This document shows positions 62,501-64,000 of a stretch of DNA of 64,000 nt, piece by piece (the first letter of the stretch is position 1; the number at the start of each line of letters is the position of its first letter). Location: assembly GCF_003334305.1 (NCBI RefSeq), contig NZ_QOWS01000002.1. One strand, 5' to 3'. Position numbers: made by a program. This DNA comes from Escherichia coli. Its GTDB lineage: Bacteria > Pseudomonadota > Gammaproteobacteria > Enterobacterales > Enterobacteriaceae.

Positions 62501-64000
62501 ATTACACCATAGAGGTTTCCTGATGGATCGGCGGTATCTCCTGTAATTCTGTCACCATCATTAATAGTAATATTGGTGCCATATTGACTTCCTGTATCAG
62601 CAGCTATCAGCAGGGGGGAAAAGATAATTGCATTCAAACCAATAGCGCCAAATTTTATCAGTTGAATTGAGGGCGAACGGATTTTTAATTCAGCGAGACG
62701 ATCTGCTTTGGTATTCCCATTGTGTTGTTTGATGCCCATACCACTCCTATATAGTACCCAGACTATGGGTCTATGGATTTTGTCATTTTGTTTAAATCAA
62801 TGAATAATATCCTCTTATCATCATGATATTTGTATGGTGCAATCATGATGAGCTTCTCAGAGAATAATTCTCTATTACCGGGCAAAATCAGGAACACAGG
62901 AGTTAATATATATTTAACATCCCCCTTACAAAGGTGAGTTTATATCGAGTTATTCCCTAAGTTGTCGTTACTTATTCCAATTCGTTACTATAAATATGGC
63001 AAAAATATTACAACAAACAGCGGTTAAAAAATTTGGTGAAGATTTTTTGTAATAATCCTAATTAGTTATGGGAATTTCGCTTGATGTATCTGCATAACAA
63101 AAACAATATGCGCCATTTTTGCATTACTAATAAGAAAAAGCAAAAAACATCGATATTCATTTTTGGTCAATGGGTTTTCTGGCCTATCGTTGTTATTGTG
63201 CTACTGGTTATCATTTTCATCTTGCCAGCATATTGGAGCGTGATCAATTTTGATCAGCTGTGAAGGTGGCTGATGTGTAGTGATACAAAAACTTACGTTA
63301 TATCACTGCTAATGAGATATCCGTCATCTGAACACTTATGTCTTTAATTATTCTCGTGGTTCACTATAGGCAATAAGCACAAAAGTGTAGGATGTTACAA
63401 GAATGATTAGGACTCGGTGAAATGAAAAATCCACGCAATTGCGTGGATTTTATATACTTTTGCGCTCTTCATGAGATTTAGCGAAACCTCATGAGACAAT
63501 AAATTAATTAGACGTTGAAAAGGAAGTTCATCACATCGCCATCTTTCACGATGTAATCTTTACCTTCTGCACGCATTTTGCCTGCTTCTTTCGCGCCTTG
63601 TTCACCTTTGTAAGTGATGAAATCTTCAAACGAGATGGTTTGTGCACGGATAAAGCCTTTTTCAAAATCAGTATGGATTTTGCCCGCTGCCTGCGGCGCG
63701 GTTGCTCCAACCGGAATGGTCCATGCACGCACTTCTTTCACCCCAGCGGTGAAGTAAGTTTGCAGGTTCAGCAGCTTATAACCGGCACGGATCACACGGT
63801 TCAGGCCCGGCTCTTCCAGCCCAAGCTCCTGCATAAACTCGTCACGTTCTTCGTCGTCCAGTTCGGCAATGTCTGCTTCAACAGCAGCACAAACCGGAAC
63901 CACAACAGAACCTTCTTTCGCCGCGATTTCACGCACCTGGTCAAGATATGGGTTGTTTTCAAAACCGTCTTCGTTGACGTTGGCGATGTACATTGTTGGT

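What the first reader, a model, noticed from the sequence alone, without database searches (positions are those of the whole stretch)
63081..63263. Candidate small hydrophobic ORF in the AT-rich ycgV-ychF intergenic region
A 60-codon ORF (MMYLHNKNNMRHFCITNKKKQKTSIFIFGQWVFWPIVVIVLLVIIFILPAYWSVINFDQL) encodes a Lys-rich N-terminus followed by a single predicted TM helix, the architecture of many validated small membrane proteins. It sits in the 770-bp AT-rich region upstream of ycgV, divergent from it. The Shine-Dalgarno is weak (GGGAA about 10 nt upstream of the second ATG), so it may be a chance ORF.
Basis: seen in the sequence. Interest (0 to 1): 0.3.

Follow-up and report, generated by a model that had tools for sequence, protein, structure and literature searches.

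The report
Probably non-functional hydrophobic ORF upstream of ycgV
The 60-codon open reading frame is really there and would encode a membrane-like peptide, but it is found only in E. coli, varies in length between strains, shows no sign of selection as a protein, and sits in silenced AT-rich DNA where such hydrophobic reading frames arise routinely, so it is most likely not a working gene.

Summary
The ORF exists as described (63081-63263, +; TTG then ATG at 63084; polar Lys-rich N-terminus, then one very hydrophobic helix). Its length is what chance gives in this 34% GC spacer (P = 0.46). The window/K-12 form is a 75-bp deletion derivative. About 2,100 complete E. coli genomes carry a longer allele (67 aa, 84 aa, or an 81-aa frameshifted form), about 1,975 carry the deletion, and about 1,330 lack the intact locus. 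Only residues 1-48 are common to all forms.

Across 19 haplotypes the ORF is as polymorphic as the surrounding spacer, and synonymous/nonsynonymous counts fit a neutral expectation (8/22; P = 0.38). Flanking ychF shows strong constraint. No homolog exists outside Escherichia/Shigella, and no Pfam, NCBIfam or Rfam family matches. It is unannotated in MG1655 and lies in a published H-NS-bound "promoter island".

The one argument for coding is the exceptional hydrophobic stretch, the top score in the 64-kb window. Four comparable stretches occur in unannotated frames in 150 kb of similar AT-rich DNA, so this argument is weak.

Verdict: most likely a neutrally evolving, non-functional ORF or proto-gene (about 0.65). 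A real strain-variable small membrane protein is not excluded (about 0.2). No accessible ribosome-profiling table covered the locus.

The parts
63081..63263 (+). The ORF: TTG at 63081, ATG at 63084, second in-frame ATG at 63108, TGA stop at 63261-63263. 59 aa from the ATG.
63071..63075 (+). Weak Shine-Dalgarno-like GGGAA, 8 nt before the ATG. Anti-SD duplex -4.2 kcal/mol.
63048..63056 (+). Extended -10-like TGTAATAAT about 28 nt upstream of the ATG. This is a possible promoter read by eye only; the consensus scan did not report it, and no transcription data were available.
   Evidence: Sequence; inference. One search found only one sigma-70-like site in the spacer (62780-62808, +).
63084..63164 (+). 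Codons 1-27, the polar Lys/Asn-rich N-terminus (MYLHNKNNMRHFCITNKKKQKTSIFIF). This is the least polymorphic part of the ORF: 5 mutations against 9.3 expected, P = 0.10.
63174..63230 (+). Hydrophobic 19-mer VFWPIVVIVLLVIIFILPA (KD 3.06), the TM-like segment. The segment spanning codons 28-48 is hyper-polymorphic: 13 mutations against 7.0 expected.
63224..63228 (+). GCCAG, the junction of the 75-bp deletion. Long alleles carry 75 extra bases here, flanked by GCCAG direct repeats.
62897..63197 (.). Approximate extent of the published promoter island 1255333_301 (U00096.2 numbering), H-NS-bound in all ChIP studies the paper compiled. It covers the ORF start and about 38 codons. I converted the coordinates with a +777 offset to NC_000913.3, which I inferred.
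   Evidence: PMC3661553 Table 1; offset consistent
63426..63451 (.). Palindromic hairpin AAAATCCACGCAATTGCGTGGATTTT. It is the likely ychF terminator and the nearest terminator-like site downstream of the ORF, about 165 nt after its stop.
59872..62739 (-). ycgV autotransporter adhesin gene, divergent neighbour. It is a pseudogene or fragmented in several lineages.
63419..63520 (.). Segment next to and including the 3' end of ychF that stays syntenic when other islands occupy this site. Everything to its left, including the ORF, is replaced in strains such as Ecol_656.

Best explanation
This is a species-restricted orphan ORF in AT-rich, H-NS-bound island DNA between ycgV and ychF, and it is not maintained by selection as a protein. 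The T-rich + strand happens to read as a Lys-rich stretch (from an A-run) followed by a run of NTN codons (Val/Ile/Leu/Phe), which looks like a TM helix. That is a common by-product of this kind of DNA. The window/K-12 allele is a derivative in which a 75-bp deletion between GCCAG repeats fuses codon 48 to a downstream in-frame tail. Other lineages end the frame differently, giving 67-aa, 84-aa and 81-aa frameshifted forms.

Shown here: the ORF's anatomy, its allelic forms, a neutral substitution pattern, its orphan status, and the frequency of comparable hydrophobic frames in similar DNA.

Inferred: it has no function today. If the region is ever transcribed, for example when H-NS silencing is relieved, the ORF could be translated pervasively into a short membrane-inserting peptide without contributing to fitness, i.e. 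a proto-gene at most.
For: Length is at chance level (P = 0.46).

Across 19 haplotypes, polymorphic-site density is 11.8% in the ORF against 10.8% in the rest of the spacer, with codon positions 17/6/7.

A mutation-spectrum-aware neutral model predicts a synonymous fraction of 0.228, and 8 of 30 were observed (P = 0.38). There are 30 mutations against 28.5 expected, and the TM segment has 13 against 7.0. pN/pS is 0.68 (1.20 for codons 1-48), inside the range of the five control frames, 0.26-1.31. The ychF control gives pN/pS near 0 and codon positions 2/0/32.

The C-terminus differs by deletion, nonsense and frameshift among common alleles. About 1,975 genomes carry the deletion form, about 2,121 the long form, and about 1,330 of 5,426 lack the intact locus.

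The only homologs are allelic variants in E. coli/Shigella, both in 5.8 billion clustered proteins and in a full HMMER scan of 1.84 billion representatives. There are no Pfam, NCBIfam or Rfam hits.

The ORF is unannotated in curated MG1655, although ymgK, ymgL, ymgM and ymgN are annotated in the same 50 kb.

The spacer is a published H-NS-bound promoter island (PMC3661553).

Equally hydrophobic 19-mers occur in unannotated frames of waaJ and waaO and in the ygeF/ygeG and tfaX/appY promoter-island spacers.
Against: The hydrophobic 19-mer is the most hydrophobic in all six frames of the 64-kb window; the next two map to the membrane proteins ymgF and pdeG. It also beats composition-preserving shuffles (P = 0.002 and 0.0007).

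All 9 nonsynonymous changes at hydrophobic codons stay hydrophobic, against 62% expected (P = 0.013 uncorrected).

The start codon and codons 1-48 are intact in 18 of 19 haplotypes, and the N-terminal 27 codons are somewhat less polymorphic than expected (P = 0.10).

The SD is as good as those of small proteins annotated nearby.

The tests have low power, with only 30 polymorphic sites and no outgroup. Expression under H-NS-relieving conditions was never examined.
Confidence: 0.65

Rival explanations
1. It is a genuine, strain-variable small inner-membrane protein. Its functional core would be residues 1-48, a cytoplasmic Lys-rich N-terminus plus one TM helix. It would be transcribed divergently from ycgV and normally silenced by H-NS. 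Only the hydrophobicity of the helix would be constrained, and the C-terminal tail would be free to vary (59, 67 or 84 aa).
For: The TM-like segment is exceptional. The KKKQK motif ahead of the helix follows the positive-inside rule (sequence). Hydrophobic-to-hydrophobic replacements are 9 of 9 (P = 0.013). The core is intact in 18 of 19 haplotypes. The SD is comparable to those of ymgK, ymgL and ymgM. A possible extended -10 lies upstream and a hairpin downstream, giving a plausible transcription unit of about 390 nt. Weaver et al. defined small proteins as 50 aa or fewer, so the ORF may have been outside that screen.
Against: There is no excess of synonymous change. The TM segment is the most polymorphic part and includes G28D and P34H/L/S. 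The ORF is an orphan, is absent from about a quarter of complete genomes, and is unannotated. Comparable hydrophobic frames occur in other unannotated AT-rich DNA. The P = 0.013 does not survive correction for the roughly 8 tests I ran.
Confidence: 0.2
2. It is a decaying relic of a once-functional gene carried on the ancestral ycgV island, perhaps an 84-aa two-helix membrane protein, now eroding by deletion (K-12 type), nonsense (67 aa) and frameshift (81 aa).
For: The long form is present in about 2,121 genomes across divergent haplotypes and has two hydrophobic segments. The period-3 T pattern suggests a coding origin. The locus is island-like: it is replaced by other islands at the ychF 3' end, and ycgV itself is often a pseudogene.
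Against: There is no homolog of any length anywhere else. It is unrelated to the integrase or island genes at the same site. Spacers upstream of YcgV-like genes in other species share nothing with it. Without an outgroup I cannot tell whether CAA or TAA at codon 68 is ancestral.
Confidence: 0.1
3. It is a type I toxin-antitoxin-like module: a small hydrophobic toxin ORF whose translation is controlled by an antisense or overlapping small RNA.
For: It is a small hydrophobic ORF in an intergenic region, unannotated and strain-variable, with a hairpin downstream.
Against: It matches no Hok, Ldr, TisB, Ibs, ShoB or other toxin family in Pfam or NCBIfam and no antitoxin sRNA family in Rfam. RNA folding is unremarkable on both strands (z = -0.9 and -1.6). 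It is single-copy. The 27-residue polar N-terminus ahead of the helix is, to my knowledge, not the usual toxin architecture.
Confidence: 0.03

Closest known systems
Promoter islands of E. coli K-12 (Panyukov and Ozoline, PLoS One 2013, PMC3661553)
   Same: The ycgV/ychF spacer is itself one of the listed islands (1255333_301). It is AT-rich, marked as H-NS-bound in all the ChIP data sets compiled there, and associated with a gene predicted to be foreign. The island covers the ORF start and about 38 codons.
   Different: That work concerns the density of promoter-like sites and transcriptional silencing. It does not discuss ORFs or peptides encoded in the islands.
Proto-genes with TM propensity arising from thymine-rich intergenic DNA (Vakirlis et al., Nat Commun 2020, PMC7005711)
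   Same: A T-rich non-genic sequence reads as a TM-like peptide. The ORF is lineage-restricted, shows no detectable purifying selection, and varies in length between strains.
   Different: That work is in yeast and rests on evidence of translation and fitness effects. Here neither translation nor any effect has been shown, and the non-coding ancestral state could not be checked for lack of an outgroup.
Pervasively translated novel sORFs of E. coli (Stringer et al. 2021 preprint, 10.1101/2021.07.02.450978)
   Same: It is a short intergenic ORF without purifying selection. That paper concludes that most newly detected sORFs are of this kind.
   Different: Those ORFs have measured start and stop ribosome peaks. 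This one has no translation evidence that I could access, and at 59-60 codons it is above the paper's <51-aa small-ORF class.
Small inner-membrane proteins of E. coli, for example YmgF in this same window
   Same: It shares the single very hydrophobic helix and short length. YmgF gives the second-highest hydrophobic score in the window.
   Different: YmgF is annotated with a described role (division septum component). This ORF is an orphan with a neutral substitution pattern.
Type I toxins (Hok/Sok, Ldr/Rdl, TisB/IstR, Ibs/Sib, ShoB/OhsC)
   Same: It is a small hydrophobic peptide ORF in an intergenic region and is strain-variable.
   Different: There is no family match, no antisense RNA family, no structured mRNA and only a single copy, and the architecture differs.

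Membership tests
Functional small membrane protein gene | An open reading frame with a start codon, a ribosome-binding site and a TM helix | tested here: met
   ATG at 63084, SD pairing -4.2 kcal/mol, hydrophobic 19-mer KD 3.06
Functional small membrane protein gene | Purifying selection on the protein: fewer nonsynonymous than synonymous changes, and lower diversity than flanking non-coding DNA | tested here: not met
   8 syn and 22 nonsyn against a neutral synonymous fraction of 0.228 (P = 0.38). Density 11.8% against 10.8%. TM segment 13 mutations against 7.0 expected. The ychF control shows strong constraint.
Functional small membrane protein gene | The ORF is conserved in related species or has homologs elsewhere | tested here: not met
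   Only E. coli/Shigella allelic variants were found. Nothing similar lies upstream of YcgV-like genes elsewhere. The genome-contig scan was uninformative, so E. albertii, E. fergusonii and the cryptic clades were not examined directly at DNA level.
Functional small membrane protein gene | Evidence of translation (start-site ribosome profiling, epitope tag, mass spectrometry) | not testable with these tools
   The stored Stringer table contains no coordinates near 1.25 Mb. The Weaver and Meydan supplements are not held. The TetRP and smORFer supplements are silent on this locus. The ORF is not in the curated MG1655 annotation.
Type I toxin-antitoxin | The toxin belongs to a known family (Hok, Ldr, TisB, Ibs, ShoB, Zor, DinQ) | tested here: not met
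   No Pfam or NCBIfam match
Type I toxin-antitoxin | A cognate antisense or adjacent sRNA and a highly structured toxin mRNA | tested here: not met
   No Rfam sRNA family matches. Fold z-scores are -0.9 (+) and -1.6 (-). A novel sRNA cannot be excluded without RNA-seq.
Promoter island (Ozoline group) | Listed among the promoter islands, AT-rich, H-NS-bound | tested here: met
   Table 1 entry 1255333_301 ycgV/ychF, H column 'A' meaning all studies. GC 33.7%. H-NS binding is taken from the paper and was not tested here.
De novo proto-gene from T-rich DNA | Lineage-restricted, T-rich, TM-prone, no purifying selection | tested here: met
De novo proto-gene from T-rich DNA | A demonstrably non-coding ancestral sequence in an outgroup, plus evidence of translation | not testable with these tools
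   No orthologous spacer was found outside E. coli, and no translation data were accessible.

The most novel reading that the evidence does not exclude
The ORF is a young, E. coli-specific small membrane protein that arose from T-rich island DNA. It would exist as three common length isoforms (59, 67 and 84 aa) sharing a 48-residue core, be silenced by H-NS together with the divergent cryptic adhesin gene ycgV, and be expressed only when silencing is relieved. That would be a bacterial example of de novo birth of a membrane protein caught while still polymorphic.
Probability: 0.15. Interest if true: 0.45.

Novelty: not a real feature. Interest (0 to 1): 0.15.

Why it matters
The outcome is mainly a caution. 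In AT-rich, H-NS-bound E. coli DNA, a reading frame with a Lys-rich head and a textbook TM helix can look persuasive and even beat composition-preserving shuffles. The same DNA class produces equally hydrophobic frames elsewhere, and this one shows no protein-level constraint, so hydrophobicity alone should not nominate small-protein genes in such regions. If the minority reading were true, the locus would be a convenient polymorphic system, with three natural isoforms plus null strains, for studying how a membrane peptide emerges from silenced island DNA.

Tried and rejected

2. YcgV-like genes in other species (about 55% identity) lie at different loci with unrelated upstream spacers, so they give no outgroup.

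3. Ribosome-profiling supplements. The stored Stringer preprint table is truncated and holds no coordinates near 1.25 Mb. The Weaver and Meydan supplements are not held, and the published versions and Thomason's TSS paper are not held either. The TetRP, smORFer and 'Cryptic microproteome' supplements contain nothing for this locus.

4. The 75-bp segment as a mobile element: rejected, because it is single-copy in every genome that has it.

5. The hydrophobic run as a trinucleotide or tandem repeat: rejected, because TRF finds nothing.

6. The spacer as a relic of an integrase or island gene: rejected, with no tblastn or blastn similarity.

7. Plasmid or phage origin: rejected. There are no phage hits, and the 'plasmid' hits are all E. 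coli records, several of chromosome size.

8. Divergent haplotypes P0024, P0053, P0038 and P0039. The first three come from one assembly series in which ychF is split or truncated in two of the three, and in the fourth ycgV is shattered. I discarded them as unreliable assemblies.

9. The excess of polymorphism at codon position 1 (17/6/7) is not accounted for by my mutation-class rate model, which predicts about equal thirds. No ORF exists in the frames that would make those sites wobble positions, so I treated it as unexplained and not informative.

Full report
OBSERVATION

The ORF is present exactly as described: 63081-63263 on the + strand, TTG at 63081, ATG at 63084, a second in-frame ATG at 63108, and TGA at 63261-63263. 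The translation is (M)MYLHNKNNMRHFCITNKKKQKTSIFIFGQWVFWPIVVIVLLVIIFILPAYWSVINFDQL.

The window is E. coli. The ORF lies in the 768-bp, 33.7% GC spacer between ycgV (59872-62739, - strand) and ychF (stop at 63508, - strand). It is divergent from ycgV and convergent with ychF.

GGGAA at 63071-63075 gives an anti-SD duplex of -4.2 kcal/mol. That is weaker than the median of 52 annotated genes in the neighbourhood (-5.7). It is better than 83% of random ATGs and similar to the small proteins ymgK, ymgL and ymgM annotated nearby.

IS IT MORE THAN CHANCE?

The length is not. In 5,000 dinucleotide-preserving shuffles of the spacer the longest ORF averages 60.5 codons, and P(>=60) = 0.46.

The hydrophobic segment looked significant at first. 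VFWPIVVIVLLVIIFILPA has a mean Kyte-Doolittle score of 3.06 (P = 0.002 against shuffles). Thirteen consecutive codons carry T at position 2 (P = 0.0007). It is also the single most hydrophobic 19-mer in all six frames of the 64-kb window. The only two other stretches above 2.8 map, by coordinates, to the membrane proteins ymgF and pdeG. No tandem repeat explains it.

I then calibrated against real sequence, using 150 kb of MG1655 that is rich in AT-rich horizontally acquired DNA. It contains four comparable stretches in short, unannotated stop-free frames:
- out of frame inside waaJ, KD 3.29
- out of frame inside waaO, KD 3.14
- in the ygeF/ygeG spacer, KD 3.01
- in the tfaX/appY spacer, KD 2.92

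The last two spacers are listed promoter islands, like the ycgV/ychF spacer. TM-like frames are therefore a recurrent by-product of this DNA class. This matches what was described for thymine-rich non-genic DNA in yeast (PMC7005711).

ALLELES

The window/K-12 ORF is not the only form of this reading frame. Other E. coli strains carry 75 extra bases inside the ORF, flanked by GCCAG direct repeats; the junction in the window is at 63224-63228. With those bases the frame reads:
- 84 aa, with a second hydrophobic segment
- 67 aa, where codon 68 is TAA instead of CAA
- 81 aa, with a frameshifted tail
- 52 aa in one K-12-type genome that has a 1-bp deletion in the A-run

The 75-bp segment is single-copy, so it is not a mobile element. 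It is present in 2,121 of 5,426 complete genomes. The spacer as a whole is present at 80% coverage or more in 4,096 genomes. That leaves roughly 1,975 genomes with the deletion form and about 1,330 without the intact locus.

The same deletion occurs on two haplotypes that differ at 21 sites spread over both flanks, so it either recurred or was moved by recombination. Only residues 1-48 are common to all forms. The 11 C-terminal residues of the window's ORF are untranslated sequence in the 67-aa alleles.

SELECTION

I compared 19 distinct spacer haplotypes.
- Polymorphic sites are as dense in the ORF (30 of 255, 11.8%) as in the rest of the spacer (64 of 593, 10.8%). They fall 17/6/7 on codon positions 1/2/3.
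- A neutral model using the mutation-class rates of the non-ORF spacer predicts 22.8% synonymous, 72.7% nonsynonymous and 4.5% nonsense changes. Observed: 8 synonymous and 22 nonsynonymous (P = 0.38).
- It predicts 28.5 mutations in the ORF; 30 were observed.
- The TM segment (codons 28-48) is hyper-polymorphic, with 13 against 7.0 expected (P = 0.027). Its changes include G28D and P34S/L/H.
- On the first set of alleles (11 sequences), Nei-Gojobori pN/pS is 0.68 for the whole ORF and 1.20 for codons 1-48. That is inside the range of the five control frames of the same DNA, 0.26-1.31.
- As a positive control, flanking ychF in the same genomes gives pN/pS near 0 and polymorphic sites 2/0/32 by codon position.

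Two weak signals point the other way. All 9 nonsynonymous changes at hydrophobic codons stay hydrophobic, against 62% expected (P = 0.013 uncorrected). Codons 1-27 carry 5 mutations against 9.3 expected (P = 0.10). Neither survives correction for the number of tests I ran.

DISTRIBUTION AND FAMILY

The word-indexed search of 5.8 billion protein clusters returned 89 hits. Those that carry a source name are all E. coli or Shigella, and the sequences are variants of this locus. Many of them come from low-quality assemblies.

The full HMMER scan of 1.84 billion representatives found no other family. Two weak hits to long proteins, matched in several short stretches, look spurious. There are no Pfam, NCBIfam or Rfam matches. 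There are no phage copies, and the plasmid-collection hits are all E. coli records, several of chromosome size. RNA folding is unremarkable on both strands.

The nearest YcgV-like genes in other species are about 55% identical. They sit at other chromosomal loci, and their upstream spacers share nothing with this one.

CONTEXT

The spacer is listed as promoter island 1255333_301 and marked as H-NS-bound in all the ChIP studies compiled (PMC3661553). After coordinate conversion this is about window 62897-63197, which covers the ORF start and about 38 codons. The +777 offset I used is my inference; it is consistent. A genomic SELEX study also lists a peak in this spacer (PMC5493296).

The locus is flexible:
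- In strains such as Ecol_656 an integrase-bearing island replaces everything left of window 63419.
- In one metagenomic contig another island starts 13 nt inside the 3' end of ychF.
- ycgV is a pseudogene or fragmented in several lineages.

The spacer is unrelated to that integrase.

EXPRESSION

I could not obtain direct evidence either way. The curated MG1655 record annotates ymgK, ymgL, ymgM and ymgN within the same 50 kb. From memory, these were added from ribosome-profiling screens. It annotates nothing in this spacer. This is weak evidence for two reasons. Weaver et al. defined small proteins as 50 aa or fewer. An H-NS-silenced region would also give little signal in wild-type cells. The supplementary tables I could reach were truncated, absent or silent on this locus. 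Stringer et al. conclude that most newly detected translated sORFs in E. coli are not under purifying selection. Translation alone would therefore not establish function.

CONCLUSION

The most likely reading (about 0.65) is a neutrally evolving orphan ORF produced by T-rich, H-NS-bound island DNA. It is non-functional, or at most a proto-gene. The window's version is a 75-bp deletion allele.

A real, strain-variable single-TM protein constrained only for hydrophobicity remains possible (about 0.2). A decaying relic of an island gene is about 0.1, and a type I toxin about 0.03.

The finding is ordinary and scores low. Its main value is as a calibration example: hydrophobic ORFs in promoter-island DNA should not be nominated as small-protein genes on architecture alone.

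Noticed in passing
window 63419-63520; L004 1702-3080; L018 2011 onward: The 3' end of ychF is an island integration point. In strain Ecol_656 a tyrosine-integrase island replaces everything left of 63419, including ycgV and the ORF. In a metagenomic E. coli contig a different island, carrying a TerB-domain gene, begins 13 nt inside the ychF 3' end. About 630 complete genomes match only this short ychF-proximal piece of the spacer.
   Followed up: partly
window 59872-62739 (ycgV); L002, L009, L017, L019, L021-L023: The autotransporter gene ycgV is truncated or split into fragments in O157:H7 Z869, O145:H28 RM12761 and several other lineages, so the whole locus appears to be decaying in parts of the species.
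   Followed up: no
window 63224-63228; L021 compared with the window: The identical 75-bp deletion between GCCAG repeats is found on two haplotypes that differ at 21 sites spread over both flanks. This implies either recurrent deletion at a 5-bp repeat (8 bp if imperfect) or transfer by a short recombination tract.
   Followed up: partly
L036 11061-11117 (-) and L037 23159-23215 (+), MG1655: Two other promoter-island spacers (ygeF/ygeG and tfaX/appY) contain unannotated stop-free stretches of 51 and 54 codons, with hydrophobic 19-mers of KD 3.01 and 2.92. They look like close analogues of the finding. Off-frame stretches inside waaJ and waaO score even higher (3.29 and 3.14).
   Followed up: partly
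window 63335-63454 (+) and 63423-63493 (-): There are weak Rfam Leu_leader matches on both strands (33 and 31 bits, gathering score 50; E = 9e-5 and 3e-4). Both are centred on the palindromic terminator hairpin at 63426-63451, so they most likely reflect terminator-like structure only.
   Followed up: no
window 63075-63165: This is the least polymorphic block of the spacer interior, covering the SD and codons 1-27, an A-rich stretch. It had one polymorphic site in 91 nt among the first 13 alleles, and codons 1-27 carry 5 mutations against 9.3 expected among 19 haplotypes. It could be a regulatory or H-NS nucleation site for ycgV rather than coding constraint.
   Followed up: partly
L005 (Actinomycetes bacterium MAG contig) and L006 (Streptomyces sp. 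DH24, 400-bp contig): K-12-type copies of this E. coli locus appear in assemblies labelled as actinomycetes. This is almost certainly E. coli contamination of those assemblies.
   Followed up: no
hit H10, NZ_CP062851.1 (strain Res13-Lact-PEB21-38-A): An IS1A-family transposase gene is annotated under the match, and the spacer aligns there in two pieces spanning about 1.5 kb. This suggests an IS1 insertion in the ycgV-ychF spacer, another sign that the region tolerates disruption. I did not map the insertion point.
   Followed up: no
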